Of a stretch of 64,000 nt of DNA, positions 36,964 through 50,220 are shown one piece after another. The stretch's first letter is position 1; every line of letters begins with the position of its first letter. Below the pieces are notes generated by a model. The model was not told the DNA's origin, searched no databases, and was given only the letters and a program-made list of their open reading frames with translations. The position numbers and the translations under genes are program-made. The stretch comes from Escherichia virus TH43: sequence record MT446414.1. One strand, written 5' to 3'.

Positions 36964-37030
36964 GGTAAGGTAAGGTTAGCGGCCTTAATGGTCGCTAGTT
37001 TATCAAGATGCATTAATCGAAAAATAGTTG

Positions 37031-37058
37031 TTGACACGTCGAATCGTTATGATAAGAT
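37031..37058 (+). promoter_or_regulatory. strong sigma70-like early promoter P1
   Basis: TTGACA (37031-37036), 16-nt spacer, TAAGAT (37053-37058); A-rich tract upstream. Confidence 0.6.
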
Positions 37059-37104
37059 GTGCACATGGTCAGCGATGACATAAAACATCCGGCACTAAGT
37101 GCCC

Positions 37105-37117
37105 CGCTCTTTAATAA
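37105..37117 (+). promoter_or_regulatory. boxA-like antitermination element (copy 1)
   Basis: CGCTCTTTAATAA, one mismatch to rrn boxA core; preceded by hairpin GGCACtaaGTGCC (37091-37103), i.e. rrn-like boxB-then-boxA order. Confidence 0.55.
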
Positions 37118-37192
37118 TTTATCGTCTTGCCCTTTCGCAAAGATTCACGCGAGATAAGGGAAGAGAACAAAAAGAAGACGATAAAAAAAGAG

Positions 37193-37220
37193 TTGACAAG
37201 GTGAAACGTTCTGATAGAAT
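37193..37220 (+). promoter_or_regulatory. strong sigma70-like early promoter P2
   Basis: TTGACA (37193-37198), 16-nt spacer, TAGAAT (37215-37220); A-rich tract upstream. Confidence 0.6.
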
Positions 37221-37243
37221 GTTCACTAAGCAGTAAGAAACAC

Positions 37244-37256
37244 CGCTCTTTAAAAA
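37244..37256 (+). promoter_or_regulatory. boxA-like antitermination element (copy 2)
   Basis: CGCTCTTTAAAAA about 25 nt downstream of the P2 -10. Confidence 0.5.
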
Positions 37257-37360
37257 TATGAATCAGAAAGTTAAGCGCAACCGCTTACAATCTTGTTAAT
37301 CCAATACGTGATTAACTGGTCATTCGAAAGAATAGACGAGAAAAAGATTTAAAAAAGTGG

Positions 37361-37389
37361 TTGACACGCTAAACAGGATGATTCATAAT
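37361..37389 (+). promoter_or_regulatory. strong sigma70-like early promoter P3
   Basis: TTGACA (37361-37366), 17-nt spacer, CATAAT (37384-37389); A-rich tract upstream. Confidence 0.6.
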
Positions 37390-37478
37390 GAGCACTCACT
37401 AAGCAAATCACCGCGAAGTGAACAGCGTAACAACGGCTAACAGTTGCATAGTGTGAGAAAGCACACTGATAGATTTAC

Positions 37479-37491
37479 CGCTCTTTAACAA
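37479..37491 (+). promoter_or_regulatory. boxA-like antitermination element (copy 3)
   Basis: CGCTCTTTAACAA followed by TTTA matches the rrn boxA consensus as recalled; preceded by hairpin GTGTGagaaagCACAC (37451-37466). Confidence 0.6.
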
Positions 37492-38305
37492 TTTAAACAT
37501 TCTCCTATATCGGTTGAATATGCTAGATGATAATAACCATCGGATAGCATACCAGATAAAACGGTGTAAGATTCTCTAAGTTATCAGAGTAAACAATCTC
37601 ACAATCCCTTACTGGAAACGTCACCACTGATAAGCAGATTCATCGAGTGCACGCAAAGACTTAAGCTAATCGCCCACGGTTAAGGGTAGCGGCGGTCATC
37701 GCTAACAAGGCGCTACGGTGAAAGAAGTTAATCAGGGTAGACAAGCCCGACTAATTAACGCTCAATTGAGAGCGGCGGGGAGTGGTTAAAAAGTGGCAAA
37801 TTGCTATTTAACAATAAGGTTTAGTGTGAACGTTTACGAAGTGAATGATTTGAGGCCACTATTGATGGCGTACATAATCAGTTTATGTAGTAAACCTGCT
37901 GAAAGATATAAAACGTCAATGTATCAGGCGGCTAATGACTCTTTCGCAATAACCTCCCGTAGTGGGCGATGGTTAGCGATTGAGAGTTGGTATAAAAGGA
38001 TAGGCGGGAGCGAAAGCAAAGTAAACGATATTACCGACGGTTACAATAAAGTAACTAATTAGAGTCGGGCACACTGCCTTATTGTGATGATTGATCATCG
38101 CTATCAGGTCGGCTTCGTTTATAGCGACTAATTAAAGATACCAGATGAAACATCACGGATAATGGGGCGGCTAGGTTAACTCCTGATAAGACCGCCCCAC
38201 TTACCTATAACTACTTAATAACGAGCGGTTATAGTTAAGTCATTGTGACTTGAATAGCTCATAGAGAGCGGCGCATAGAGCGTTTCAATTAAAAGGTAAA
38301 TTATC

Positions 38306-39208
38306 ATGGCTAAATCTTTCAATCTGGTTAACGAATCTGGCTTTAACGCACTGGCTAACAACATTCGTAGCAACAACGCAGCGATTAAGCAAGATGTTTC
38401 TAACTTCCTGTTAGGTCACTTACAGCACTTCCGTGCTAACGGTAAGAAGTTAGATGTATTGCAGGCGGCAGTAGACTTCCTGTTAACCGAGCGTTACCGT
38501 GATTTAGATGTGATTGCGGTTGCAATCTCTTTCCTCACTCCTATCAAGTACAACAGCGACGGGGCGAACGGTAAAAAGAAATGGATTAATCTGGAAGGTG
38601 AAGCGAAAGCGAAAGAAGACGCTAAGCCGGAACAAGTTAAGGCCAAAATGGAACAAAACCGTGCCCGCTGGTCTAACTCCTTTGAACGCTTTGCGAAAGG
38701 TGAAGACGTGCAGGTTGATAATCCAGCTTTCTATAAAGGTTGCAATGACAACGTGCCAGTTGCCAACCAAATCAACCAGAAAGTTGGCGAAAACTTCAGC
38801 CAGGATATTTACGCCTTAACTGATCGTTTGGCTGCAATCCGTATTGAAGCGGCCTTACTGGCTGATGAGCGCAACGGTGCATCTTCTGATAACACTATCG
38901 CATTGAGTGAAGAGGTAGGCAAAGTTAAGAAAACTTTTGATTCACTCCTTAAGAAAGTAACCGCATCAACTGTATCTATCAGCGATGACTATCTGATCAA
39001 TGCCTCAGCCAAAGAGCTTGAATCTCTGGATTCATACGCTGATGAAATGGAGAAAGCGATCAACGAAATGACTGAAAAATTGTCTAACCTTCGCGGTCGT
39101 ATCTCAAATGCTTCAACTGTCAAAGCGAACGAGAAGGCGGCGGCAGATGAGGAAGAAGTATTGCGCAAAGCTGCCGCAATCATGGCAGCACGCCAACAAG
39201 CTGCATAA
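38306..39208 (+). CDS. hypothetical early protein, 300 aa
   Basis: First substantial ORF downstream of the promoter/boxA block; ATG with AAAGG upstream; Ala/Lys/Glu-rich. Confidence 0.55.
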   Translation: MAKSFNLVNESGFNALANNIRSNNAAIKQDVSNFLLGHLQHFRANGKKLDVLQAAVDFLLTERYRDLDVIAVAISFLTPIKYNSDGANGKKKWINLEGEAKAKEDAKPEQVKAKMEQNRARWSNSFERFAKGEDVQVDNPAFYKGCNDNVPVANQINQKVGENFSQDIYALTDRLAAIRIEAALLADERNGASSDNTIALSEEVGKVKKTFDSLLKKVTASTVSISDDYLINASAKELESLDSYADEMEKAINEMTEKLSNLRGRISNASTVKANEKAAADEEEVLRKAAAIMAARQQAA

Positions 39209-39228
39209 CTTACAATAAAGAACATATA

Positions 39229-39262
39229 AGGCGCTATTCGAAAGGGTAGCGCCTTTTCTTTT
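39229..39262 (+). terminator. intrinsic terminator
   Basis: AGGCGCTA ... TAGCGCC stem with 10-nt loop followed by TTTTCTTTT. Confidence 0.6.
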
Positions 39263-39316
39263 ACTAGTGCATTGATTCAGTGTACTAATCAAAGAAGCTA
39301 AAAAGAGATAAACACC

Positions 39317-39541
39317 ATGCCAAAATTGAAAACAGAAGTTAAGATGTATCGTAATATCTTAAACAACATGACCTATCGTAAAACCGATAAGTATGGAATC
39401 GAGTGTAAATGCATCCTTACCGGTGAATGGTATCCGTCACCGATTCAAGAACAAGCATTGATTGAAAACTCTGTTACTTACACCATCACGCAGGAAACTA
39501 AGCTAGGCCGATTCCTTCGTAAGTTAGGGCTACGCAAATGA
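39317..39541 (+). CDS. hypothetical protein, 74 aa
   Basis: ATG with AAGAGA upstream. Confidence 0.4.
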   Translation: MPKLKTEVKMYRNILNNMTYRKTDKYGIECKCILTGEWYPSPIQEQALIENSVTYTITQETKLGRFLRKLGLRK

Positions 39542-39759
39542 TCTTAACTCAATCCCACCTTTGCCCTATCTGTAAGAAAGCGCGTGCTAATAACAACCAT
39601 CGCAAGTGTAGTAGAATCTTACAACGACGTCGTAATGATGCCGAGATGGATAAGCTGCACAAAAATCAGCATGAGCACGAAAGAAAACAAGCGGCGATTA
39701 GTGCATCTTCTGTAATGTATCGTCGTGTAAGATCACTCCAATATAGGGAGGTTATTTAA
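39538..39759 (+). CDS. hypothetical basic protein, 73 aa
   Basis: ATGA overlap with upstream gene; CPICKK ... HRKC Cys/His cluster. Confidence 0.4.
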   Translation: MILTQSHLCPICKKARANNNHRKCSRILQRRRNDAEMDKLHKNQHEHERKQAAISASSVMYRRVRSLQYREVI

Positions 39760-39968
39760 TGACCAGCTTAAGCACGTTAGAGAAGAAAGCTACTCGTTTG
39801 TTAGGGCGTCGTGTCCGCTATCACTACCTGAATAAAGGCAAGGCATTAACCGGACGTATTACCACGGTATCCAGTTGTCGCGGTAAACTGATCTCTGTAA
39901 GTGTTCTCTTTGATGGCGAACGGGTAGCAATTACGCGTAGCTGGAAGTCGTTTAGTTTGATTGATTAA
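39759..39968 (+). CDS. small protein with SH3/KOW-like barrel signature
   Basis: LGRRVRYHY ... GRITTV ... V.FDGERV pattern; shares the GRRV core with 40039 and 41664 ORFs. Confidence 0.4.
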   Translation: MTSLSTLEKKATRLLGRRVRYHYLNKGKALTGRITTVSSCRGKLISVSVLFDGERVAITRSWKSFSLID

Positions 39969-40038
39969 GTTATTTGGTTAAGCCTTGCTATGTGGTAAGG
40001 CTTGCACGATATAATTTATCAGCGAAAGGAATAAAGCA

Positions 40039-40482
40039 ATGGCTAAATCTAAAATCAGCATGAAAGGCGGGCGTGTGTTCTCGATGAGTGAACTGGAAAA
40101 AGATAAGCCAGTCGCCACTAACCACGTTAGCAAACGTAGCCTTAAACGTAGAGCTATCAAACAAGCCGCTCAAGAACATAAACCGTCTACCGTAGCAAAG
40201 GTGTTAGGGCGTCGTGTTCACCGTGCTGATGCGCTTCTTCTTGCTGATCATAAGCGTTCCTTGTTAACCAACGGTGCAGCGAAAACAGAAGAAGAGAAAC
40301 GTTTAGAAATCTTCTGTAATGGTCGCACTAAGGGTAAGCAAAAGAATAAAGGTAGCACTAAGCCACCGAAAGCTTTCCCTACTACCAGCCAATGTGCACC
40401 TGATGTTTTCTACGCTGACAGTCAGCATAAATGGGGAGTCGAAAAATACATCGACCCCATCAAGGAAGCGAGAGTGAAGTAA
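40039..40482 (+). CDS. basic, probably nucleic-acid-binding protein, 147 aa
   Basis: Lys/Arg-rich; AAAGGA upstream of ATG. Confidence 0.45.
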   Translation: MAKSKISMKGGRVFSMSELEKDKPVATNHVSKRSLKRRAIKQAAQEHKPSTVAKVLGRRVHRADALLLADHKRSLLTNGAAKTEEEKRLEIFCNGRTKGKQKNKGSTKPPKAFPTTSQCAPDVFYADSQHKWGVEKYIDPIKEARVK

Positions 40483-40514
40483 GCCTCTTCTCTGTACCAG
40501 TAGTCAACTACTAT

Positions 40515-40540
40515 GACGCTCTTCTTGAGCGTCTTTGTGT
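40515..40540 (+). terminator. intrinsic terminator 1 of a cluster
   Basis: GACGCTC ttctt GAGCGTC followed by TTTGTGT. Confidence 0.5.
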
Positions 40541-40542
40541 CT

Positions 40543-40564
40543 GCCGCCTTTGTGCGGCTTTTTG
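40543..40564 (+). terminator. intrinsic terminator 2 of a cluster
   Basis: GCCGC ctttgt GCGGC followed by TTTTTG. Confidence 0.5.
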
Positions 40565-40713
40565 CGTAGCTAGTGATGCCTAAAGGGAAAGCCCTTTGTG
40601 AATCATTGGCATGGTTCAATCCCTATTGGATGGTCATTTGACCGGGCCTTTAACGAGGCCGCTTTTTTAAGAGTCTTTACGAGGATTCTTAAATGAGTGA
40701 GGTCATGTTCACT

Positions 40714-40741
40714 CTTTCAGGTCGCCCCGTCTTCGGATGGG
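40714..40741 (+). terminator. intrinsic terminator 3 (strongest)
   Basis: GCCCC gtcttcggat GGGGC followed by TTTTTTAT. Confidence 0.65.
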
Positions 40742-40801
40742 GCTTTTTTATGCCCGTAAAACAGGAGGTAGTAAGTTCTGATAACGACAGCCCAGCTACT
40801 T

Positions 40802-41188
40802 TTGACATTGACTATTTATTATGAGGCAGGGAATCAGCCAACCGCTTGCAAAGCATTAGTAGCGGATACCGTAATAAACAGAATGTCACAACGAAAACTG
40901 ACTGCCGAGCAGGTTATAAACCAACGAAACCAGTTCGAGTGGATACCCGTCTTATTAAAGAAGGAGAAACCTTTCAAACGTTATGTAAAGCTAATTCGTG
41001 ATGATAACCCTCTGACGAAGAAGTCAATCAGGGAGAGCGAGCAGCTTGCAAGACGTGCACTGAAGAAAAGTTATGTGCCTTTGTATAGCGGTACATACTT
41101 TCAGAGTAAGAGCGAAGGGGTGCCAAAGTGGTATACCAATCCAATGTATTGTGGTGATTTAGTGTTCAATAATAGTGCCCGTGACTGA
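40802..41188 (+). CDS. putative SleB-like cell-wall hydrolase domain protein
   Basis: LTIYYEAGNQ ... LVADTVINR ... NQFEW resembles the Hydrolase_2 signature as recalled; strong AGGAGGT at 40762-40768 implies a non-AUG start upstream of the track TTG start. Confidence 0.4.
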   Translation: MTLTIYYEAGNQPTACKALVADTVINRMSQRKLTAEQVINQRNQFEWIPVLLKKEKPFKRYVKLIRDDNPLTKKSIRESEQLARRALKKSYVPLYSGTYFQSKSEGVPKWYTNPMYCGDLVFNNSARD

Positions 41189-41389
41189 TTCATAGGTGCC
41201 AAGATTGACAAACTAAATTCCCTTATAAATCACCTACTTATGATTTTCTCTGCAAAAAGTGGTAGTGATTCGGAACCAGAGGTAATGACTGTATATAGAC
41301 CTCTGAAAATTATTGATAGAAATTAAGTTTAGAAATAATAAATTCTAAATAATATTTCTTATAATATCTTACTTTAAGAGGATAAAGAT

Positions 41390-41695
41390 ATGACTTTAGA
41401 GGTTTATAAGCTCCTTCTCGTACTCACTGTAACGATTTCTACTCTAGGATTTATTGCTTTAAGTAATAAGTCAGCAAGCTGGAAGCGTCGTTATGAGTTC
41501 CTTCTTAAGCAAGAGGAAGTCTTTAATGCTGATATTCGTTCCAAGTTGGTCAAGATGCAGGAGCAAATTGAAGCACGTAATGATCGTTTGGCTTCTTTGG
41601 GTTGGGAGATTAAGCGTATTCAAGATCTCAATAAGCAACTCACTGAAGAAATTAAACGCCAGAATGAGGAAACAGAGGATGCGCTCAAGGGTTAA
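41390..41695 (+). CDS. membrane-anchored coiled-coil protein, 101 aa
   Basis: N-terminal transmembrane segment LLLVLTVTISTLGFIAL then charged coiled coil; AGAGGA upstream. Confidence 0.45.
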   Translation: MTLEVYKLLLVLTVTISTLGFIALSNKSASWKRRYEFLLKQEEVFNADIRSKLVKMQEQIEARNDRLASLGWEIKRIQDLNKQLTEEIKRQNEETEDALKG

Positions 41696-41855
41696 GTTCA
41701 CCACTGGTCACACTGTTCGCCTTGTTGGCGGTACTCAAACAGGTGTTATTCGTCGGAGAACAACGATTGATGGTGTTCTCTGTTATCTTGTTCAGTGGAA
41801 TGGTGAATCCTCTCCTTCCTTCGAACGTCGTACTGATTTGGTGTTAATCAAATGA
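41664..41855 (+). CDS. small SH3/KOW-like protein
   Basis: HTVRLVGGTQTGVIRRRT ... YLVQWNG pattern; start uncertain (ATG 41664 or 41679). Confidence 0.35.
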   Translation: MRKQRMRSRVKFTTGHTVRLVGGTQTGVIRRRTTIDGVLCYLVQWNGESSPSFERRTDLVLIK

Positions 41856-42082
41856 AAATTAATCTCCCATCTTTAGTTGTTACTAAAAAGCTCAGCGATC
41901 TACGTCCGGGTGATGTATTCCGTCTACCAACTAACTCTGAACACCTCTATCTAAAGACAGACACCTGCCTGAATGATATGCATCGTGTGGTTGGTCTTCG
42001 TCAGGGAACACTATTCCAGTTACAGGAACATCATGAAGTTATCCCTGTATTTGATGTTCAAGTGACTAATATTGGTGGTTAA
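41852..42082 (+). CDS. small protein, PGDVF-motif family member 1
   Basis: LSDLRPGDVFRL motif; ATGA overlap with upstream gene. Confidence 0.5.
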   Translation: MKINLPSLVVTKKLSDLRPGDVFRLPTNSEHLYLKTDTCLNDMHRVVGLRQGTLFQLQEHHEVIPVFDVQVTNIGG

Positions 42083-42307
42083 ATGAAGATTGACATTGAT
42101 AGTACGCCAGAGGTTGTAACTCTCGGAGACCTAAATCCGGGTGAAGTCTTCCAGTTTAACTACAATGAAACTCAATACTACATGCGTACTGCGTGTTATG
42201 GTGAAAACAAAAGTTATTTTGTTAACCTTTATACAGGTAAGCGTGATTCTGAGTGTAAATCGACTGTAGTCAGACCTGTACCTAACGCACAACTAACCAA
42301 CAAGTAA
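42083..42307 (+). CDS. small protein, PGDVF-motif family member 2
   Basis: LGDLNPGEVFQF motif; tandem to member 1. Confidence 0.5.
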   Translation: MKIDIDSTPEVVTLGDLNPGEVFQFNYNETQYYMRTACYGENKSYFVNLYTGKRDSECKSTVVRPVPNAQLTNK

Positions 42308-42431
42308 CATCGACTTATAGCCCTTGTGCTTATCAGAGGGCTATGTGAGGATGTTCCTCAATTAACTATAATCTCAATGCCATATGGCTCACCGCTAGGG
42401 CGAGACTTGTCTCAAACATCCGGTGATAGAC
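42308..42431 (+). repeat. conserved structured intergenic element, copy A
   Basis: Hairpin ATAGCCCT-12nt-AGGGCTAT (42317-42344), then GCTAGGG and second hairpin GAGAC..GTCTC, then AACATCCGgtGATAG; near-identical copy at 48221. Confidence 0.6.
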
Positions 42432-42609
42432 TAAAACCTGTTAATTTTCGAATGGCATTCCGATATGTAGGGGTATGTATCGGTTTGGGATAGAGAACAA
42501 TCTAGGGGTAGAAAGTTCTCGACAGTTTGTACAAGCGGAAGCCTTAACGTGTAGGGCTTCCCTTTATATTAACTGGCAATCCTGCCTCCATTAACAAAGA
42601 GAGAACGTT

Positions 42610-42750
42610 ATGAAAAAGACAACCAAACGTATGAACCGTCCTGAACGTATGGATGCAGTAGCAAATGGTGCTCTGAAGATTGAGTCTGCCATGCTCCGTC
42701 TGACAACTAACATCCGTAAACGTCAGGGTGATTGGTTCTATGGCGGCTGA
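42610..42750 (+). CDS. small basic ORF, 46 aa
   Basis: ATG with AGAGAG upstream; below the track length cutoff. Confidence 0.3.
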   Translation: MKKTTKRMNRPERMDAVANGALKIESAMLRLTTNIRKRQGDWFYGG

Positions 42751-42943
42751 GCATGACATTGGTATTCGTGAGATTATTCGTCTTGCGATAATTGACCATC
42801 CTAATAGTCGTGATGGTTTGTTGTTACAGATCTCTAAATGTCTCAATTGCGATCGGGATGTAGCAAAAGAGTTGTTCTATGCATTCCTGTATAATGCAGA
42901 AGATCGCTTCTTGAATAACAAACTGCGTAGTGCTTGCACTTAA
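42740..42943 (+). CDS. hypothetical protein, 67 aa
   Basis: ATG at 42740; track start 42728 is GTG. Confidence 0.35.
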   Translation: MAAEHDIGIREIIRLAIIDHPNSRDGLLLQISKCLNCDRDVAKELFYAFLYNAEDRFLNNKLRSACT

Positions 42944-42949
42944 ATAAGA

Positions 42950-42980
42950 GGCTGCCCTTCGGGGTGGCCTTTGTTGTTTT
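42950..42980 (+). terminator. intrinsic terminator
   Basis: GGCTGCCC ttcg GGGTGGCC followed by TTTGTTGTTTT. Confidence 0.55.
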
Positions 42981-43023
42981 AATTAAGGGGCAACTCTTAC
43001 TTAAACTAACAAGAGAGGTTGGT

Positions 43024-43233
43024 ATGAACATTCGTTTAGTTCGTAAACAAGATGGCAGACAGGTTGTGCTAGGTGAGATTGTTTGTGCTGCACACAACCT
43101 ACTCCCTGAAAAAGATGAAACTATCTGGTTTGATGGAGAACAGCGCCGAGTATTATCGGTTGTTAAATCCTTTGAGCCAAAACGCAACAATGAAAAAGCT
43201 CTTACCTGTTGGTTTGAGGTTGACATTACATAA
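43024..43233 (+). CDS. hypothetical protein, 69 aa
   Basis: ATG with GAGG upstream; track ORF 42934 trimmed. Confidence 0.45.
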   Translation: MNIRLVRKQDGRQVVLGEIVCAAHNLLPEKDETIWFDGEQRRVLSVVKSFEPKRNNEKALTCWFEVDIT

Positions 43234-43242
43234 GGGGTTGAT

Positions 43243-43494
43243 GTGTTCAATCGTTTATTTGACCGTAAAGGTCGCACTGACATACTGATACCTTCTATCG
43301 GTGTGCCAGCTAAGTTCGGTGAGATACGTGCTGGTGACTTCTTCATGGAATCAGGTCGTCTTCATCTGAAGATCAACCTCGATCACGCTGTTGAAATCCT
43401 CAGTGATGATAAGCCAATCATCGGCACTTCGGTGTACAGTGCAAACCATACTGTATTTGTTGTCAATGTTCAGATTGAGATTAAATCACCATGA
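43243..43494 (+). CDS. small protein, PGDVF-motif family member 3 (divergent)
   Basis: GEIRAGDFFME motif; GTG start with AAGGGG upstream. Confidence 0.45.
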   Translation: MFNRLFDRKGRTDILIPSIGVPAKFGEIRAGDFFMESGRLHLKINLDHAVEILSDDKPIIGTSVYSANHTVFVVNVQIEIKSP

Positions 43495-43748
43495 AGACAA
43501 ACTTCCGAGCAGCAGTTATTACGAAAGTAATAGCAGTTGGCGATGTAATGATGCAGGTTCCTCTGAACACTCGTTACATTGCCATTGACCGAATGGGTTA
43601 TGTGTGGGCTTGGAAGTGGAAGCCTACTTATAACGAACTGTTCGACGAATACCAGTGCGCTGGACCTTACATGCCAACCTTAATCGGTGTGTATGAAGAT
43701 GGTCCTTGTCGTACTCCTCAGTTAATCGAACTACCGGCGTGTGCTTAA
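43491..43748 (+). CDS. hypothetical protein, 85 aa
   Basis: ATGA overlap with upstream gene. Confidence 0.45.
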   Translation: MKTNFRAAVITKVIAVGDVMMQVPLNTRYIAIDRMGYVWAWKWKPTYNELFDEYQCAGPYMPTLIGVYEDGPCRTPQLIELPACA

Positions 43749-43749
43749 T

Positions 43750-43911
43750 ATGATTAAGTGGCTAAAGCGTGTCTTCCATTGTCATGATTGGAAGATTATT
43801 AACACCCGTCCTCTGGTCTATACAGATTCAGATGGGAACAATGACAAGGGCACACGTTACGTTATTCAGTGTAAGGTGTGTGGTGATGTTAGTCATCGTG
43901 ATGTAATCTAA
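43750..43911 (+). CDS. small zinc-ribbon-like protein, paralog 1 (53 aa)
   Basis: MIKWLKRVFHCHDW ... CKVCGD; below track cutoff. Confidence 0.45.
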   Translation: MIKWLKRVFHCHDWKIINTRPLVYTDSDGNNDKGTRYVIQCKVCGDVSHRDVI

Positions 43912-43920
43912 GGAATCATT

Positions 43921-44085
43921 ATGATTAAATGGTTCAAACGTCTATTTCATTTCCATGAGTGGGAAGATCTTTCTACTTATGAACTGACGATCACAAATAA
44001 ACTTACTGACAGAGAGCGACAAGGGTTGCGTATCTACTCTCGCTGTAAAGTGTGTGGTCTGCACAAGAAAACAGACCTGATTTAA
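43921..44085 (+). CDS. small zinc-ribbon-like protein, paralog 2 (54 aa)
   Basis: MIKWFKRLFHFHEW ... CKVCGL; AAGGA upstream. Confidence 0.45.
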   Translation: MIKWFKRLFHFHEWEDLSTYELTITNKLTDRERQGLRIYSRCKVCGLHKKTDLI

Positions 44086-44093
44086 GGGGTGTT

Positions 44094-44303
44094 ATGTTCT
44101 TTCGTAAGAAAAAGCCCGAAGATTCTGGATGTAAACACGAGTGGGTGATCACTGAAAACCTTCAAATCACTCACGCTAAAGACACTCCAGTCGAGAGAAA
44201 AGAGTCTCGTGTATCTCGTATCTGTAAACGCTGTTTGAAAATAGAACAGCATAAAGTTCCCGGTCATATCGGTCACGATGTGGCCTTGCGTATCTTCAGT
44301 TAA
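44094..44303 (+). CDS. small zinc-ribbon-like protein, paralog 3 (69 aa)
   Basis: CKHEW ... CKRC; AAGGGG upstream; track start 44052 trimmed. Confidence 0.45.
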   Translation: MFFRKKKPEDSGCKHEWVITENLQITHAKDTPVERKESRVSRICKRCLKIEQHKVPGHIGHDVALRIFS

Positions 44304-44337
44304 ACAAACTCAGCATCCTTAGCTCAATGGAGGGGTT

Positions 44338-44760
44338 TTGAAGATAGAGTTAGAATACCCCTTCGTTAATGACTGGCGATTGGGCTACTTAAGAACAAGC
44401 AGAGACGGTAGGAAGCGTGTTGATTTGTATAATACCGACACGGAGAGGACAACCATTTCTTACGCAAGATATTTAATGTCTTGTCACATAGGCAGGTACC
44501 TAACTGAAGACGAGGAGGTTGATCATATTGACAGAAATAAAACTAATGATGACATATCTAATCTTCAGATACTTTCCATAGAAAATCACAGAAAGAAGTC
44601 AACATTAGAAGCAACTACTGGAAGAACAATGATTTCAGTTGTTTGCTCTTATTGTGGAAGATCTTTTGAAAAAGAAAAGCGAAATGTTAAATATGCAAAT
44701 TCTTTTTGTAACAGATCATGTGCAGGTAAGTATAACGGTTTCAAATCTATCGGGGCGTAG
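44338..44760 (+). CDS. HNH homing endonuclease
   Basis: EVDHIDRNKTNDDISNLQILSIENHRKK is a classic HNH core, plus C-terminal CxxC ... C...C; TTG start with GGAGGGG upstream. Confidence 0.65.
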   Translation: MKIELEYPFVNDWRLGYLRTSRDGRKRVDLYNTDTERTTISYARYLMSCHIGRYLTEDEEVDHIDRNKTNDDISNLQILSIENHRKKSTLEATTGRTMISVVCSYCGRSFEKEKRNVKYANSFCNRSCAGKYNGFKSIGA

Positions 44761-44826
44761 TCTAGTGGAACAGGCAGCGAGCTTCTAACTCGCCTTACGA
44801 GGGTTCGAATCCTTCCGTCCCGACCA
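44751..44826 (+). tRNA. tRNA-Arg (anticodon UCU)
   Basis: Manual cloverleaf: acceptor CGGGGCG/CGTCCCG, D-arm GTCT-AGTGGAAC-AGGC, anticodon arm GCGAG-CTTCTAA-CTCGC, T-arm GAGGG-TTCGAAT-CCTTC, discriminator A, encoded CCA; 76 nt. Confidence 0.8.
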
Positions 44827-44837
44827 ATTTTAAACAA

Positions 44838-44952
44838 GGGCTAGTATGGGTACGGCACCAGAGTTAGTGTATCCCTGTTGAGGCAAGTGCTTTTATAACA
44901 GTGGGAATTGCTTTCTTAGTGAGCTTCTGGTTCGATTCCAGATAGTCCACCA
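44838..44952 (+). ncRNA. tRNA-like element of aberrant length (about 115 nt)
   Basis: Canonical T-arm TCTGG-TTCGATT-CCAGA and CCA end; acceptor pairing GGGCTA/TAGTCC only if the 5' end is at 44838; internal hairpin 44872-44906; no standard cloverleaf found by hand. Confidence 0.35.
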
Positions 44953-44971
44953 AATCAAATAGGAGGTGCTT

Positions 44972-45298
44972 ATGAGTTGGGGTGGTGTAATTACCTTAAC
45001 CTGTATCTTTATCGCCTGTGTAGCTCTTACAGGCTGCGTACAGCATCGTCCTGATGGATGGTGTGCATTATCGGTAGAAGGTGTCTGTGTTTCCCGTTGG
45101 CATAGCGGGGAGAAGATTCCTAGTGGTGAAATTGATATGCGTTATGCTGGTGCTTCTTGTTCCAATGGCGGTGCTGTTGACGAGAAGGCTTATGCAAAGC
45201 GTGATATGGCTACCCAAGGTGATTGGTCACGTTATGACTTCATCTCCCGTGGTGAGCTGTGTGGTGGCTCTGTGACAACAACAGGTAAGGAGTGGTGA
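44972..45298 (+). CDS. putative lipoprotein (Cys-rich)
   Basis: Signal peptide ending in lipobox-like LTGC; AGGAGGT upstream of ATG 44972. Confidence 0.5.
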   Translation: MSWGGVITLTCIFIACVALTGCVQHRPDGWCALSVEGVCVSRWHSGEKIPSGEIDMRYAGASCSNGGAVDEKAYAKRDMATQGDWSRYDFISRGELCGGSVTTTGKEW

Positions 45299-45299
45299 T

Positions 45300-45554
45300 A
45301 TGTCCGGTCATTATTCTGATACGAAAGCTCTACTTGAAACAGCGGCTCAAACTTCATGCCAACAGCAAGTAAAAATGCTGTTGGTTGATATCCGTAATCT
45401 TCGTTGGCTTATTAAAGAAGGTCATCTCGGTAACGCTGCCTATTACAACGTTAAAGATATCCTTCGCCGCCAGCACTTTCTTATCCACGGAAACGTGGTA
45501 ACTCGCAACTATCAATGGAACGGTGAATGGTTACAGCAGCGTATGTCCTCCTGA
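45300..45554 (+). CDS. hypothetical protein, 84 aa
   Basis: ATG two nt after the upstream stop. Confidence 0.4.
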   Translation: MSGHYSDTKALLETAAQTSCQQQVKMLLVDIRNLRWLIKEGHLGNAAYYNVKDILRRQHFLIHGNVVTRNYQWNGEWLQQRMSS

Positions 45555-45781
45555 TTTATGTTATTGGTTGGTGGTTGGCAGCCATTGTAGTTAAATGGTG
45601 CTTCAAAACCAATACACTCTACAACTTCTTCCATTCCTCATGGAGTGGTAAGCCTGATGAATACTCTATTTGGACGGTGATATTCTTCTGGCCTTTTATG
45701 CTGATCTTTATCCTCTTCTTACCTTTACTTATGTTGATAGGCTGGGTAATGGATAAGGTGACAGTCTTTATTACTAAGTAA
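45527..45781 (+). CDS. small integral membrane protein
   Basis: Two or three hydrophobic helices (WWLAAIVV..., IFFWPFMLIFILFLPLLMLIGWV). Confidence 0.4.
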   Translation: MVTAAYVLLIYVIGWWLAAIVVKWCFKTNTLYNFFHSSWSGKPDEYSIWTVIFFWPFMLIFILFLPLLMLIGWVMDKVTVFITK

Positions 45782-45800
45782 TATCATCCTTGGAGTTTTT

Positions 45801-46049
45801 ATGTCTTCTAAAAAGAAAGAACTGTTCAACAAACGCCTTTCTGATGCCCTTCAGTGGCGTCGTGATGTTGCTAATGGCTGCGTAAAAGCAAGCTATGAAA
45901 CATTCAGTGGGTTTGATGAAACCTATGCAGGGTTCAAAGGAAGCATCTCCTGTGATGATCTCGATAAGATTTGTGAAAAGTCTTATGAGATGGAAGATAA
46001 TCTTTGTATTGGCTGGAGCATGGGGGAGCTTCGTCCCAACACTAAGTAA
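45801..46049 (+). CDS. hypothetical protein, 82 aa
   Basis: ATG with GGAG upstream. Confidence 0.45.
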   Translation: MSSKKKELFNKRLSDALQWRRDVANGCVKASYETFSGFDETYAGFKGSISCDDLDKICEKSYEMEDNLCIGWSMGELRPNTK

Positions 46050-46325
46050 TATCGTGAAGGATTCTTACGAGAGTCCTTTGAGATAGGACTTCAGATCTCC
46101 TATCAACTAACCGCTCAATGTTGAGCATTTTAATCACATAAGCCCCTCATGGGCTGGGTTTAATGCCGGTAAGCGTTTTATGCTATCCACTACAGCATCG
46201 GATTGTTAGGTCTTACATGCAACATTAATTAATAGGATATGGGAGGATTCGTCCCCTCCCCCTATTTATGAAAGCATTCTTCCGAGAGTTCTCTCATAAA
46301 TTGGTCCATAACTAAAGGTGGTAAA

Positions 46326-46580
46326 ATGAAAGTTAACATGCCAGCAGGTAAAAATTCAATACCCCTCAGTGCTTTGCGACTTGGGGATTGCTTCATGTAC
46401 CCTAACAGTGAAGATGGTGATTTGTACATCTTACTGTCTACCGAGTTCTCAACTCGCTTGTGCATTAAGGGTGCGGACGAGCACAGACTTGTAGCCTGTC
46501 TTAACACAGGCCGAGCGACAGCGCCTCGTAAAGATGTTGCTGTTATTCCTATTAAAGCTGAAGCAATTATTAAGGAATAA
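46326..46580 (+). CDS. small protein, PGDVF-motif family member 4
   Basis: LSALRLGDCFMY motif; AAGGTGG upstream. Confidence 0.45.
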   Translation: MKVNMPAGKNSIPLSALRLGDCFMYPNSEDGDLYILLSTEFSTRLCIKGADEHRLVACLNTGRATAPRKDVAVIPIKAEAIIKE

Positions 46581-46583
46581 GCA

Positions 46584-46850
46584 ATGACAGTTCTTACTAT
46601 CAATAAGACTCGTGTTGCAGATATCCCTCTGACTGTTCAGGGGATTCTTCCCGGCTCTTTCTTTACCCTTAAAGAAGATAAAGAACAAACCCTTTACATG
46701 AAGGTAAACAAAAGCTCTAACGGTTCTGAATACTCTCGAGCCGTGTCTATGCAGAGTGGGTACGTTCGTAATATGGCACCTAATATGCCAGTTGGTGTTG
46801 TATTTGAATCAGCAACTCTGGATTTAGTGGAGAAGGTTAGTGAAACGTAA
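46584..46850 (+). CDS. small protein, PGDVF-motif family member 5 (divergent)
   Basis: GILPGSFFTL motif; tandem to member 4. Confidence 0.4.
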   Translation: MTVLTINKTRVADIPLTVQGILPGSFFTLKEDKEQTLYMKVNKSSNGSEYSRAVSMQSGYVRNMAPNMPVGVVFESATLDLVEKVSET

Positions 46851-47112
46851 AGATCATCCAAAATATGTGTCACTATTGGATGCAGCCCTTCTCTGCACAT
46901 ATTGGCTCCTCATTGTTGTTGGTGTCGTGCTAATAATATGTGGTGTCGTACAGTTCTTTATGTATCTGCAAAGCGTGTTAGATATCACATTAGCTAACAC
47001 TATAATCCTTGCAATTCTCGGTATTATTGCTTTCTGTGTGATTGTCTTCTTCGTTTGGTTATCTATGAACGACGACTCTACACACCTTCTATTGACAGGA
47101 GAAAATCAGTGA
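46840..47112 (+). CDS. small membrane protein (two transmembrane helices)
   Basis: Two hydrophobic helices; GTG start overlapping upstream gene. Confidence 0.4.
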   Translation: MKRKDHPKYVSLLDAALLCTYWLLIVVGVVLIICGVVQFFMYLQSVLDITLANTIILAILGIIAFCVIVFFVWLSMNDDSTHLLLTGENQ

Positions 47113-47293
47113 GAAAACGTGCCTACTCTGAAGAAGAAATGGTTAACCTGAAAGGCTTTGGTCAGCGACAGCCTGATGGCTCAGTTATCTGGTACATTAA
47201 CGGACAGAAAAAGGCAAGTAAATAAGCCCTCTTCTCTCCTCCCTTTAGCTACTATGACGCCTCTCTTTTCGGCGCTGTTTTGGAGCTTCAAAA

Positions 47294-47707
47294 ATGGCTG
47301 GGAAACTCCCCAACGTAAGCAAGAAATTGGCCTACCTCACGTATAAAGAAAACATTGATCTTCTGGTCAAGCTTTATCCGGCTTCATTCAACAAGCAATT
47401 CCCTCTTCCTTTGGAGCTTAACATCCATAAGGAAATAGCCCGTAAGACCGGTTGGTCAGCGGAGAAAACAAGCATGGTGCTCAACATCTGGACTACTCGT
47501 ATGGAGTATGTGATGATGGCCTGTAGCACTGGTAAACGCTTCAAGCTGCACTCTGTAGCTATGAAGATTCGTAGTCCTATTGACCCTGAGCCAATGGCTG
47601 GGTTCAGCAGCCGTCTGAAATCTTTCCGTGATCGTGGTCGTGTAGTGAAGTTTAAGCACGACTTCTCTTATAAGTTTGGATACGAAGCGTTCCAATTCGT
47701 TGTTTAA
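47294..47707 (+). CDS. FinO/ProQ-like RNA-binding protein
   Basis: LYPASFNKQFPLPLELNIHKEIA ... LNIWTT ... GKRFKLHS parallels the ProQ N-terminal FinO-domain pattern; GGAG upstream of ATG. Confidence 0.5.
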   Translation: MAGKLPNVSKKLAYLTYKENIDLLVKLYPASFNKQFPLPLELNIHKEIARKTGWSAEKTSMVLNIWTTRMEYVMMACSTGKRFKLHSVAMKIRSPIDPEPMAGFSSRLKSFRDRGRVVKFKHDFSYKFGYEAFQFVV

Positions 47708-47735
47708 TCTCTCTTTAATATAAGGTAATAGAAAC

Positions 47736-47969
47736 ATGTCTAAAGTTAGCGCAATTGATGCCATCCGCCAGCCGTTCCAGTTCCAGTCCAAATCAACCCA
47801 AACCTTCAGCGAACCTCGCCAGATTCGTCTGGGCGGCACAGAGAAATCTGTGTTTGATATTGCGAAAAATAAAAGCGTGACCATCGTCGAAGGTGGTGAG
47901 CTGGTTAATGTTTCCCATCGTATCCGCACTGGTAAAACTGCCAAAGATCGTGCTAAGAAAGGTCTGTAA
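47736..47969 (+). CDS. hypothetical protein, 77 aa
   Basis: ATG with AAGGTAA upstream. Confidence 0.45.
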   Translation: MSKVSAIDAIRQPFQFQSKSTQTFSEPRQIRLGGTEKSVFDIAKNKSVTIVEGGELVNVSHRIRTGKTAKDRAKKGL

Positions 47970-48220
47970 TGCAAATTGCTAATAAAACCCCTCCTGAATC
48001 AATTATCCAAGTAAAGGATATGTCACCGGGAGATGTATTTCGTGCAACGGAATATCCGGGGGATTTCTTTATTCGAATCCCCTCAGCATCTGTTGGTGGT
48101 ATCGCTAAACCGGTAACAGCAGTTCAGCTAAGTACGGGTCATCTCTTCCGTTTAGAGATTGATATGATTGTGATTCCTGTTCCAACAGCAATCCTCCGCT
48201 TCGACGGAGCCACAGAGTAA
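47969..48220 (+). CDS. small protein, PGDVF-motif family member 6
   Basis: VKDMSPGDVFRA motif; followed by repeat copy B, as member 2 is followed by copy A. Confidence 0.5.
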   Translation: MQIANKTPPESIIQVKDMSPGDVFRATEYPGDFFIRIPSASVGGIAKPVTAVQLSTGHLFRLEIDMIVIPVPTAILRFDGATE

Positions 48221-48354
48221 CATCTATAGCCCTTGTGAGTATCAGAGGGCTATGTGAGCTATTCTGGCTCAACTAACCTAAACTTAATTTAATCTTACCC
48301 GTATGGGGCCGATGCTAGGGAGAGGAACAGTCCTCGAACATCCGTCGGATAGAA
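48221..48354 (+). repeat. conserved structured intergenic element, copy B
   Basis: Hairpin ATAGCCCT-12nt-AGGGCTAT (48226-48253) nearly identical to copy A; second hairpin GAGGA..TCCTC covaries with GAGAC..GTCTC of copy A. Confidence 0.6.
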
Positions 48355-48461
48355 TATTTTAAGAGCAGGTTATCCACAGATATTGGGTGATATCTATTTA
48401 ATTGGCCTTAAAGCTTGGCTCTCTTAGGAGAGTCCTTTTTTAAGTTCAAAGAAGAGGTTGT

Positions 48462-48629
48462 ATGGATAATAAGTTGAAAGTTAAGTTCTTATTGGCAGCA
48501 ATCTTTATTTGCTTAGCCACCGTGGGGTTTGCCCGTGTGACTTCCTTTGTATCTTGTGAATTAAGCAAGAACAACAGAGGGTCTTATAACTGGCTTACCA
48601 ATCAATGTGATAAACAGGAGAAGTTATGA
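48462..48629 (+). CDS. small secreted protein, 55 aa
   Basis: Signal-peptide-like N-terminus; GAAGAGG upstream; ATGA-type overlap with next gene. Confidence 0.35.
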   Translation: MDNKLKVKFLLAAIFICLATVGFARVTSFVSCELSKNNRGSYNWLTNQCDKQEKL

Positions 48630-48988
48630 ACCTACGCCCCATCAAAGGCCATGTGAACCTGTCTACGCTGCATAAAGTAGCAAATGATTTGGGTGGCATG
48701 GACGAGAATGATTTGGAGCAGCAATTGCTCTGGATTGCTCATGGCATCAAGGCGGCAAAGGCCAAAATGGCTCGTGCACAAAGCAAGTTAAAGGCGAATA
48801 AATATCTTATTCGTCGTCGTAATACCTTACCTCAGGATGTGGTGAGTTTGGCTGTGGCAGGATACAATGCAGCAGAGGTAGAACTTCAGGAAGCAGAATT
48901 CGAAAAAATGCGCTTCCAAGAAAACTACCGAAACTTCCGTAGCATTGCCTACATTCGCAAATCTCTGGGCCTTCTGGTAGCAGAGTAA
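48626..48988 (+). CDS. hypothetical protein, 120 aa
   Basis: ORF with GGAG upstream. Confidence 0.5.
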   Translation: MNLRPIKGHVNLSTLHKVANDLGGMDENDLEQQLLWIAHGIKAAKAKMARAQSKLKANKYLIRRRNTLPQDVVSLAVAGYNAAEVELQEAEFEKMRFQENYRNFRSIAYIRKSLGLLVAE

Positions 48989-48999
48989 AGAGGTAAAAG

Positions 49000-50220
49000 A
49001 TGTTCCCTGTAACACTTCAAAGCTGGAAAGAATCAGAAGATGTTGTAACCGTCTGGCCTCCTTGTTATGGTTTCCTTAAAGCAGGTTACTATCAGGGTGG
49101 TGATTATGATGAAGATGATGAAGACGGTGATCCTGACTACTACAACACGTATGACAGCAACTACGGCTGGAATATCCGCATCAAGGTGTGGAGTACAAAT
49201 ATGATGGTTCGTCAAGGCACTGCTGAAGAGAATGTTCTTGAGAATATGTTGCCTATGTCTGAAATCAAGTATATCTGGAACTCCGGAACACATCTTCCAG
49301 CTCACGGTGTAAGACGTTATGGTGATACTGAATATATCGCTACTCAGTATTTCCGTGAAGGGTTAGAAAATGAAGACCCTCGTCCTCCTTCTCATGTAGA
49401 AACATGGGCAGAAGAAAACAACCGTCCTGACATCACTGATCGTGTTGTTATGGAAACCTTTGCAGCATTTATGGACAAAGACTCTGACTCATGTCTGGTG
49501 TGGCATGAAGTGGGGTTCATGGGTGTTTGCACTGATGGCTGTCCCGCTGATCGTGCTCTGTTCTATCTGATGTTGAATCGCACATTCTATACAGATGATG
49601 AAAAATCTGCTGTGTATGAAATGTTGAACAAGATGTATAAGAAGGGCTGGTCTCCTTTAGCCTCTCTTGCATTCAGCCGACTGATCAACTCTTCAGTGGA
49701 TGTGTTCGGTAACGAACGTGTTGCTTTAACAGGGAATGATTACGATTCCTGTATCTTCCAAGCATCTCTGTATACAGTGGGTGTTGGTAGTACAATGGTT
49801 GAGCCTCGCCAGACCAAATGGCGACAGTGTGAATACACTGAAGGTGAAGGTCATCTTCGTGATGAAGACTTCTCCAGTCTGATCTATCGCAGTGAAGGTG
49901 TTCGTGATTGTCGAGTGAACAACTCGATGTTCTTGCCAATCCTTTTGCCTCAATATTGCCATCTGTCGGAAGATACCCGCCCAATCATCACAGAAAAGTC
50001 ACTCTTGGTTGAATTTATCCGAGAGGTGGCTGAATCTGAAACATCTTTTGCTAAAATTGTGTTCGGTTATAACTGGAACAATGAAACAGCTTCAGCTCGA
50101 AGCTACAACATGTATAACATTATCAGTAGTATGTCCAATGGACTGACAGGTAGTAATTATACAGTACGTCCCTCAGAAGAGTGGGAAAACATTTTGGAAA
50201 AATTATTCTTCAATAAATAG
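49000..50220 (+). CDS. hypothetical protein, 406 aa (first gene of enzyme cluster)
   Basis: Acidic N-terminal stretch; AAAGAGG upstream; no motif recognised. Confidence 0.55.
   Translation: MFPVTLQSWKESEDVVTVWPPCYGFLKAGYYQGGDYDEDDEDGDPDYYNTYDSNYGWNIRIKVWSTNMMVRQGTAEENVLENMLPMSEIKYIWNSGTHLPAHGVRRYGDTEYIATQYFREGLENEDPRPPSHVETWAEENNRPDITDRVVMETFAAFMDKDSDSCLVWHEVGFMGVCTDGCPADRALFYLMLNRTFYTDDEKSAVYEMLNKMYKKGWSPLASLAFSRLINSSVDVFGNERVALTGNDYDSCIFQASLYTVGVGSTMVEPRQTKWRQCEYTEGEGHLRDEDFSSLIYRSEGVRDCRVNNSMFLPILLPQYCHLSEDTRPIITEKSLLVEFIREVAESETSFAKIVFGYNWNNETASARSYNMYNIISSMSNGLTGSNYTVRPSEEWENILEKLFFNK

What the first reader, a model, noticed from the sequence alone, without database searches (positions are those of the whole stretch)
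41852..48220. Six-member family of 74-88-aa proteins with a conserved L..PGDVF core, including two tandem pairs
ORFs 41852-42082, 42083-42307, 43243-43494, 46326-46580, 46584-46850 and 47969-48220 share length and an N-proximal block (LSDLRPGDVFRL, LGDLNPGEVFQF, GEIRAGDFFME, LRLGDCFMY, GILPGSFFTL, MSPGDVFRA) followed by a conserved aromatic residue. Six copies in 6.4 kb is unusual for a phage early region and suggests a diversifying host-takeover or anti-defence family in which each paralog targets a different host variant.
Basis: seen in the sequence. Interest (0 to 1): 0.5.

Follow-up and report, generated by a model that had tools for sequence, protein, structure and literature searches.

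The report
Small beta-barrel early-gene family in coliphage
Six small early genes of a phiEco32-like E. coli phage really are diverged copies of one gene family; they encode SH3-like beta-barrel proteins of unknown function that occur in 4-9 copies in all the relatives examined, so the family is real and uncharacterised, but its copy number in this phage is ordinary for the group.

The parts
41852..42082 (+). Family member 1 (76 aa; phrog_16423 lineage). First gene of tandem pair 1. Its ATG overlaps the stop of the upstream 58-aa ORF (ATGA).
   Evidence: Leave-one-out HMM E 6e-15. Distant-only profile 72 bits. AF2 model pLDDT 84.2 shows an SH3-like barrel. Ortholog dN/dS 0.27.
42083..42307 (+). 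Family member 2 (74 aa; phrog_9955 lineage). Second gene of tandem pair 1, starting immediately after the stop of member 1. Absent from SU7 and PAS59 as a clean whole-gene indel.
   Evidence: Leave-one-out E 3e-8. Distant-only profile E 2e-22. dN/dS 0.37. Presence/absence.
43243..43494 (+). Divergent family member 3 (83 aa; phrog_22099 lineage). GTG start here, ATG in relatives. The 'tG' turn motif is replaced (VEILSDDKP).
   Evidence: HMM E 0.02, N-terminal block only. hhalign 94.6%, rising to 96.1% (P 3.4e-9) with a deeper profile. 0 of 2,000 shuffles reach its score. The A24 homolog hits the family HMM, and the PKM.Lu.22.1 homolog ends a five-gene family array. dN/dS 0.06. The AF2 model failed (pLDDT 41).
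46326..46580 (+). Family member 4 (84 aa; phrog_7832 lineage). First gene of tandem pair 2. Has a long insertion in the loop after the 'YxK' strand.
   Evidence: Leave-one-out E 6e-4. Distant-only profile E 4e-18. dN/dS 0.06.
46584..46850 (+). Family member 5 (88 aa; phrog_12612 lineage). Second gene of tandem pair 2, 3 nt after member 4.
   Evidence: Leave-one-out E 2e-5. Distant-only profile E 1e-12. dN/dS 0.16.
47969..48220 (+). Family member 6 (83 aa; phrog_6570 lineage). Its ATG overlaps the end of the upstream 77-aa gene.
   Evidence: Leave-one-out E 1e-6. Distant-only profile E 1e-17. dN/dS 0.24.
42316..42349 (+). Associated element, function unknown. Conserved hairpin (10-bp stem, no U-tract) 9 nt after the stop of member 2, at the end of the first family array.
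   Evidence: One of exactly two copies in the window, with 0 expected by chance. RNA fold -22.1 kcal/mol, z -3.35. Conserved almost base for base at the same position in all 7 Gordonclarkvirinae loci.
48225..48258 (+). Second copy of the same hairpin element, 5 nt after the stop of member 6.
   Evidence: Fold -23.6 kcal/mol, z -2.73. This second copy is present in all five genomes with the Suseptimavirus-type early region that were examined (window, SU7, Bas88, ECBP2, PAS59).
37031..37389 (+). Context: three strong sigma70-like promoters (10-11 of 12 matches) at the head of the rightward early gene block that contains the family.
   Evidence: Matches the 'three promoters in the spacer' described for SU10 and phiEco32 early transcription.

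Best explanation
The six ORFs are genuine, translated early genes that encode single-domain SH3-like beta-barrel proteins of about 75-88 aa. They belong to one old, fast-diverging, phage-specific superfamily.

Shown:
- Homology among the six.
- Membership in a superfamily of at least 284 clusters at 50% identity, which includes N4 gp21 and phiEco32 gp95-98, gp104, gp109 and gp113-115.
- The barrel fold, for member 1.
- Purifying selection on every lineage.
- Location in the block that is early (sigma70-transcribed) in phiEco32 and SU10.
- Copy-number variation by whole-gene gain and loss.

Inferred mechanism: the proteins are not enzymes but small binding modules. The conserved positions (L14, L17, G20, F23, Y33, V47, L49, G52, V63, P65 in member 1 numbering) build the hydrophobic core and turns of the barrel. 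Three surface loops vary in sequence and length. Each paralog lineage therefore probably presents a different binding surface to a different host (or phage) macromolecule during the first minutes of infection. That would modulate or inhibit host processes, meaning host takeover, possibly including neutralisation of host defence or toxin proteins.

The arrays arose by ancient tandem duplication and are now reshuffled between related phages as gene-sized cassettes.
For: Homology.

Breadth of the family and lack of annotation: 284 clusters, mostly 70-90 aa; nine or more PHROGs, all of unknown function; no Pfam or NCBIfam model; no PDB relative by sequence; uncharacterised viral relatives, including N4 Gp21.

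Real genes: dN/dS 0.06-0.37 in all lineages. Shine-Dalgarno-like sequences and tight packing.

Early timing.

Binder rather than enzyme or nucleic-acid binder: the conserved columns are hydrophobic or Gly/Pro, and there are no conserved catalytic-type residues. Family median pI is 5.8, with 76% of members below 7.

Two-domain tandem fusions of about 140-160 aa exist in metagenomes, as is common for SH3/Tudor-type interaction modules.

Accessory behaviour: 4-9 copies per genome and a clean indel of member 2.

The BASEL paper reports that Gordonclarkvirinae are highly resistant to the tested defence systems and poorly studied. This is compatible with an early anti-defence repertoire but does not demonstrate one.
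Against: - No partner, phenotype or expression measurement exists for any member, so the binding-module role is inferred from fold, conservation pattern, charge and timing only.
- Gene-wide dN/dS below 1 gives no sign of an arms race.
- Only member 1 was modelled. The member 3 model failed.
- Early timing rests on synteny with phiEco32 and SU10, not on data from this phage. The phage-sigma promoter motif search could not place the early/middle boundary.
Confidence: 0.5

Rival explanations
1. The proteins are RNA-binding LSm/KOW/uL2-like small barrels. [quoted passage not shown]
Against: The family is neutral to acidic (median pI 5.8), with no conserved basic or aromatic surface patch. The model has no N-terminal helix and no Sm motifs. 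There is no sequence link to GoF, MotB.1 or Frd.2: HMM E > 0.29, hhalign <= 1.6%. Wild-type GoF itself showed no RNA effect.
Confidence: 0.2
2. The proteins are antitoxin-like or anti-abortive-infection neutralisers. Each barrel binds and blocks a particular host toxin or defence effector, in the manner of the SH3-like antitoxin VapX. This is a specific sub-case of the binder model.
Confidence: 0.12
3. The proteins are Tudor-like RNA-polymerase-binding modules, like the CarD/Mfd RID or the UvrD/PcrA C-terminal domains. They would redirect host transcription early in infection.
Confidence: 0.06
4. The resemblance is a chance or compositional artefact, or the ORFs are not real genes.
For: Pairwise BLASTP scores among the six are low (at most 34 bits), and member 3 is weak by HMM.
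Against: The profile, leave-one-out, shuffle and empirical-null tests are all decisive. All lineages have dN/dS of 0.06-0.37. There are hundreds of database homologs of the same length. The structure model is confident.
Confidence: 0.01

Closest known systems
PHROG families phrog_16423, 9955, 7832, 12612, 6570, 7431, 8365, 10911, 34455 (and phrog_22099 for member 3), all 'unknown function'
   Same: Each window protein hits its own PHROG at E 1e-19 to 1e-40, and five cross-hit each other's PHROGs. 125 diverse relatives hit the same set. These are the same proteins, already clustered in a public resource.
   Different: PHROGs splits them into separate families with no function, fold or superfamily link. 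phrog_22099 (member 3) is not connected to the others there. No Pfam, NCBIfam or PDB entry exists.
phiEco32 gp95, gp96, gp97, gp98, gp104, gp109, gp113, gp114, gp115 and N4 gp21 (uncharacterised proteins of model phages)
   Same: All match the family HMM at E 1e-5 to 1e-18. They have the same length, lie on the same strand as the early/middle genes, and occur in tandem arrays in the syntenic part of the early block. N4 Gp21 is also a structural match.
   Different: They share under 50% identity with the window copies and form different lineages. N4 has a single copy in the first 30 kb of its genome, the only part scanned. None has a known function.
T4 GoF / MotB.1 / Frd.2 'LSm-like fold' early-protein family (Kim et al. 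2025, PMC12152347)
   Same: Several uncharacterised early phage proteins in one genome share a five-stranded SH3-like barrel. Their nearest solved neighbours are FeoA and the IdeR/SloR SH3-like domains, the same neighbours found here. In T4 they are non-essential in the laboratory.
   Different: No detectable sequence relationship. The T4 proteins are 119-141 aa, with a C-terminal domain after a linker, whereas these are single-domain proteins of 74-88 aa. The phage groups differ. This is analogy, or at most very remote homology, not membership.
Generic SH3-like small beta-barrels (uL2 C-terminal domain, FeoA, KOW, Tudor, EF-P domain I, VapX, HspQ)
   Different: Sequence identity is 2-20%. There is no Pfam hit to any of these families and no Foldseek hit at E <= 0.001. 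The family's own motif (L..L.pGDvF ... YMK ... VnL.tG ... ViPv) is not that of any of them.

Membership tests
Phage small-barrel superfamily defined here (alignment A4; PHROGs 7832/6570/7431/8365/9955/12612/16423) | Significant match to a family profile that was built without the sequence being tested | tested here: met
   Five members score E 1e-12 to 2e-22 against a profile of distant relatives only and 6e-15 to 6e-4 in leave-one-out tests. Member 3 scores E 0.02 by HMM, but hhalign gives 96.1% (P 3.4e-9) with its own 7-sequence profile.
Phage small-barrel superfamily defined here | Motif pattern L..L.pGDvF / aromatic-x-K / V.L.tG / V.PV across one domain of about 70 aa | tested here: met
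   All four blocks are present in members 1, 2, 4, 5 and 6. Member 3 keeps blocks 1, 2 and 4, but its window sequence lacks the tG turn. The A24 and PKM homologs have 'PDGS' and 'PQGS' at that position.
SH3-like small beta-barrel fold | Five antiparallel strands forming a closed or bent barrel, with structural matches to SH3-like domains | tested here: met
T4 GoF/MotB.1/Frd.2 LSm-like family | Detectable sequence homology of the barrel domain (the family was found by deep PSI-BLAST) | tested here: not met
T4 GoF/MotB.1/Frd.2 LSm-like family | Two-part architecture: N-terminal barrel, flexible linker, C-terminal domain (119-141 aa) | tested here: not met
   The window proteins are 74-88 aa and the barrel spans essentially the whole length.
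T4 GoF/MotB.1/Frd.2 LSm-like family | Nearest solved structural neighbours are FeoA and the IdeR/SloR-type SH3 domains | tested here: met
Hfq/Sm (LSm) proteins | N-terminal alpha-helix followed by the five-strand Sm fold, Sm1/Sm2 motifs, ring oligomer | tested here: not met
FeoA (PF04023) and other curated SH3-like Pfam families | Score above the Pfam gathering threshold | tested here: not met
   No family at E <= 0.01 in any of 125 members apart from 5 scattered single chance hits. For the six window proteins the best hit was FliMN_C, 12.9 bits against a cut-off of 23.8.
Tudor-like RNAP-interacting domains (CarD/Mfd RID, UvrD/PcrA CTD) | Physical association with RNA polymerase | not testable with these tools
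Early (sigma70-transcribed) gene class of phiEco32-like phages | Located between the sigma70 early promoters and the first phage-sigma (gp36) promoter on the same transcription path | tested here: inconclusive
   The genes lie 4.5-11 kb downstream of three strong sigma70-like promoters. They are syntenic with phiEco32 genes 91-115 and SU10 CDS 69-125, which are classed as early. The gp36 motif search did not define the boundary in this genome, and there are no expression data for this phage.

The most novel reading that the evidence does not exclude
The family is a phage 'binder scaffold' superfamily. On this reading, an SH3-like barrel with hypervariable loops has been multiplied into arrays of 4-9 genes, and each member neutralises a different host defence or stress-response protein. 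This repertoire, swapped between phages as single-gene cassettes, would contribute to the unusually broad resistance of Gordonclarkvirinae to bacterial immunity. The conserved hairpin that closes the arrays would be a dedicated RNA processing or stabilising signal for these transcripts, possibly read by the phage's own ProQ/FinO-like protein.
Probability: 0.15. Interest if true: 0.7.

Novelty: new variant of a known kind. Interest (0 to 1): 0.38.

Why it matters
Phage early regions are the largest reservoir of genes of unknown function, and the main source of host-takeover and anti-defence proteins.

This work joins nine or more separate 'unknown' PHROGs, N4 gp21, nine phiEco32 genes and hundreds of metagenomic proteins into one SH3-like barrel superfamily that has no Pfam model. 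It shows that the superfamily is systematically expanded in Gordonclarkvirinae and Grimontviridae.

That gives a defined, tractable target set of six small genes. A close relative, Bas88, plates on E. coli K-12 with restored O-antigen, so pull-down, toxicity and deletion experiments are feasible.

If the members prove to bind distinct host factors, the family would be a natural library of small protein inhibitors. If not, the result is still a useful annotation: a new domain family with a predicted fold.

Tried and rejected
1. The search for related loci with alignments A4 and A3 failed because no stretch is conserved enough. Comparative genomics used annotated phage records instead.
2. The AFDB50 fold library was unavailable.
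3. The AF2 model of member 3 from a 5-sequence alignment gave pLDDT 41 and is unusable. Its membership therefore rests on sequence profiles and gene context.
4. Searching for the phage-sigma promoter consensus TAATGTATA to place the early/middle boundary gave 16 hits against 18.8 expected, which is uninformative.
5. phiEco32 gp79, the only characterised small protein in this gene block, was considered as a relative. It is four alpha-helices and unrelated.
6. The T4 GoF/MotB.1/Frd.2 family was tested as a possible homolog. There is no sequence signal.
7. The HIDEN-SEQ essentiality preprint was checked for data on these phages. It has none.
8. Literature searches for paralog families in phiEco32 and for N4 gp21 found nothing relevant.
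9. Very long database hits (7,296, 1,397, 1,295 and 768 aa) match only the short PGDVF-type segment repeatedly. They were set aside as motif-level matches, not homologs.
10. Weak recurring HMM hits at 59804-59983, 16583-16723 and 2259-2540 disappeared with the deep profile and with hhalign. They were rejected as additional members.
11. The D5 repeat (21 nt, 76%) near the two hairpins is not collinear with them and is treated as chance.
Full report
**What the window is.** The 8-kb stretch around the finding matches 109 phage records. The best is Escherichia phage StefiGeyer_Bas88 (95.9% identity), followed by HC-25922, NC-B, IME267, ECBP2, EK010 and SU7. SU7 and ECBP2 are classified as Gordonclarkvirinae, genus Suseptimavirus. 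These are the phiEco32-like C3-morphotype podophages. In the window, minus-strand genes fill about 2.8-33 kb, and from about 34.6 kb a plus-strand block runs to the end of the window. Three strong sigma70-like promoters lie at 37031-37389 on the plus strand.

**Check of the observation.** All six ORFs exist with the stated coordinates and lengths, and the quoted motif strings are correct. Members 1 and 2 abut with no gap, and members 4 and 5 are 3 nt apart. Pairwise identities among the six are only 22-38%, and pairwise BLASTP scores are at most 34 bits. The case therefore has to be made with profiles. It holds on four independent tests.
- Each of members 1, 2, 4, 5 and 6 hits its own PHROG at E 1e-19 to 1e-30 and also cross-hits the PHROGs of the others.
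- Leave-one-out HMMs searched against all 605 ORFs of the window recover the omitted member as the best non-training hit, at E 6e-15, 3e-8, 6e-4, 2e-5 and 1e-6.
- A profile built only from distant database relatives, containing no window sequence, scores the five at E 1e-12 to 2e-22. The first unrelated ORF is at E about 1.
- None of 2,000 shuffles of any member reaches its real score.

**The sixth ORF.** ORF 43243-43494 is the weak one. It hits only phrog_22099, fails the leave-one-out test (E 0.5), and matches the family profile only over the N-terminal block (E 0.02). It is nevertheless the best non-member among all window ORFs. Against an empirical null of 592 ORFs by hhalign it reaches 65% as a single sequence, against 14.8% for the next ORF. 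With its own orthologs the probability is 94.6%. tblastn found more distant homologs in Grimontviridae phages, at 47-49% identity. Adding two of them raises the probability to 96.1%, P 3.4e-9, over 62 columns spanning the whole domain. The Cronobacter phage A24 homolog hits the family HMM on its own at E about 1e-5. In phage PKM.Lu.22.1 the 43243-type gene directly follows four canonical family genes. I conclude it is a real but divergent member. Its structure model failed for lack of alignment depth (pLDDT 41). No further copies were detected in the window.

**The genes are real.** Orthologs of each of the six lineages in SU7, Bas88, ECBP2 and PAS59 give gene-wide dN/dS of 0.27, 0.37, 0.06, 0.06, 0.16 and 0.24. 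Kuravirus lineages give 0.05-0.30. Most copies have Shine-Dalgarno-like sequences, and they are tightly packed or overlap their neighbours.

**What the proteins are.** An exhaustive HMMER search of 1.84 billion representative proteins with the five-member profile finds 284 clusters at E <= 0.001. Nearly all are 70-90 aa and share the pattern MKI...L..L.pGDvF...YMK...aVNL.tG...ViPv. About ten are two-domain tandem fusions of 136-161 aa, and one is fused to a KTSC domain. None of 125 diverse members hits a Pfam family. The six window proteins hit no NCBIfam model. The family profile finds no PDB sequence. The ten clusters examined carry at most the name 'hypothetical protein'. The 125 members distribute over nine or more PHROGs, all of unknown function.

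**Copy number and evolution.** The family HMM run on six-frame ORFs of the fetched genomes gives these counts:
- SU7: 4, plus the divergent member.
- Bas88: 5+1, the same as the window.
- ECBP2 and PAS59: 6+1.
- phiEco32: 9 (gp95-98 in a row, gp104, gp109, gp113-115 in a row).
- SU10-like CHD5UKE1: 8-9.
- MN05: 8.
- Salmonella phage 7-11: 3-4.
- N4: 1 (gp21), in the first 30 kb, the only part scanned.

Six copies is therefore typical of this subfamily, not unusual. At 50% identity the copies fall into 23 clusters, 15 of which contain more than one genome. The lineages of the Suseptimavirus-type genomes (window, SU7, Bas88, ECBP2, PAS59) and of the Kuravirus genomes (phiEco32, CHD5UKE1, MN05) do not merge, except that PAS59 also carries one gp104-type copy. 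Arrays nevertheless occupy syntenic positions: after the gp116 homolog, and around gp95-98.

At DNA level the only similarity among the window paralogs is the 31-nt stretch encoding the L..L.PGDVF block, at 65-77% in four copies. The duplications are therefore ancient. Turnover is by whole genes. Member 2 is missing from SU7 and PAS59 as a clean gene-sized indel, and only six phage records carry it at 90% identity or more. ECBP2 and PAS59 carry an extra gp98-like copy, and PAS59 also carries a gp104-like copy.

**Timing.** In phiEco32 the gene cluster that contains mostly genes of unknown function and is most variable between phages is the experimentally defined early class. Phage-sigma promoters lie only upstream of genes 6, 13, 26, 40, 58 and 68. 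In SU10, CDS 69-125 are called early, driven by three sigma70 promoters in one spacer. The window's three promoters at 37.0-37.4 kb, and the synteny of the family genes with phiEco32 genes 91-115, place them in this class. This is inference by synteny. A search for the phage-sigma motif did not define the boundary here.

**Mechanism.** The conserved columns are hydrophobic or Gly/Pro: L14, L17, G20, F23, Y33, V47, L49, G52, V63 and P65. No set of catalytic-type residues is conserved. Variable sequence and indels concentrate in the segments 24-31, 37-45 and 53-62. The family is neutral to acidic, with median pI 5.8. Together with the fold, the early timing, the accessory behaviour and the existence of tandem fusions, this points to non-enzymatic binding modules, each presenting a different surface to a host or phage macromolecule. 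I rate this at about 0.5.
- RNA binding (rival 1, 0.2) is favoured by the ribosomal and KOW-type neighbours and by the T4 GoF precedent. It is disfavoured by the charge and by the absence of Sm features.
- An antitoxin-like or anti-defence role (rival 2) is a specific sub-case that is compatible with the data but unsupported.

**Comparison with known systems.** The closest described analogue is the T4 GoF/MotB.1/Frd.2 'LSm-like fold' early family. It shows the same phenomenon and has the same structural neighbours. Homology was tested and not detected, and the architecture differs. The family is therefore a distinct, unnamed SH3-like barrel family. It is already present in databases as unlinked PHROGs and hypothetical proteins.

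**Verdict.** The family is real and uncharacterised but ordinary in copy number for its phage group, and there is no evidence yet for diversifying selection or for a specific function. Interest is moderate (0.38).

Noticed in passing
window 42316-42349 and 48225-48258 (+); also L001 4098/8910, L002 4319/9528, L003 37995, L004 7549/13195, L005 8671, L006 9350, L007 8219/14206: A hairpin element, GTAACATC..TTA-TAGCCCTTGTGnnTATCAGAGGGCTA-TGTGAG (10-bp stem, no U-tract), occurs exactly twice in the window with 0 expected by chance. Each copy lies 5-9 nt after the stop of a family gene. It is conserved almost base for base in all seven Gordonclarkvirinae loci at the end of the first family array (after gp113 in phiEco32), although the flanking genes share under 50% identity. 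A second copy follows the member-6 lineage in all five genomes with the Suseptimavirus-type early region. It is absent from the 7-11, A24, PKM.Lu.22.1 and N4 loci. There is no Rfam match. It could be an RNA processing, stabilising or protein-binding site.
   Followed up: partly
window 47294-47707 (+): A 137-aa early protein carries a ProQ/FinO domain (PF04352, 27.2 bits against a cut-off of 27). This is a phage-encoded RNA-chaperone-like protein sitting between family members 5 and 6. It is a speculative partner for the conserved hairpins.
   Followed up: no
window 43741-43911, 43921-44085, 44091-44303 (+): A second small paralog family: three tandem ORFs of about 54-70 aa sharing an H-x-W ... 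C-K-x-C pattern, possibly a zinc-ribbon-like motif. Identity to the first is 42% and 24%. The first two also share a 43-nt DNA repeat at 77%.
   Followed up: partly
window 44338-44760 (+) and tRNA 44751-44826: An HNH_3 endonuclease gene (PF13392) is inserted between the third Cys/His paralog and tRNA-Arg(TCT), and overlaps the tRNA by 10 nt. It is absent at this position in Bas88 and SU7, where the tRNA follows directly. It is a likely mobile homing endonuclease.
   Followed up: partly
window 40802-41188 (+): A SleB-type cell-wall hydrolase domain (PF07486, 31.9 bits) is encoded in the early block, far from the lysis genes.
   Followed up: no
window 41679-41855 (+): A 58-aa beta-rich ORF (KFTTGHTVRLVGG...VQWNGE) whose stop overlaps the ATG of member 1. 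It gives a weak hit to a Tudor-type domain (Mtf2_C, E 0.004, below cut-off). It may be another small-barrel protein, but it does not match the family profile.
   Followed up: no
window 41390-41695 (+); Bas88_0107, phi32_116: This 101-aa protein is annotated 'DNA helicase' in several relatives. It has an N-terminal hydrophobic segment, a charged coiled-coil-like tail and no Pfam hit. The annotation looks like an error that has been propagated.
   Followed up: partly
window 43243: Member 3 begins with GTG in this phage, whereas all seven genome-derived relatives compared have ATG at the same codon. This is a start-codon substitution that may lower its translation.
   Followed up: partly
window 36000-50000: Terminator-like hairpins are enriched in the early block (27 found against 10.8 +/- 4.3 expected). 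They include strong ones at 39228-39255, 40724-40743, 42537-42561, 42947-42972 and 48417-48434. Sigma70-like promoter matches are depleted (16 against 28.8). This suggests a segmented or attenuated early operon.
   Followed up: no
L013 (phage PKM.Lu.22.1) 1450-3225; L009 (7-11) gp110, gp112, gp131, gp133: Grimontviridae phages also carry multi-copy arrays of the family: five genes in a row in PKM.Lu.22.1, with the 43243-type copy last. The expansion therefore predates, or has spread beyond, Gordonclarkvirinae.
   Followed up: partly
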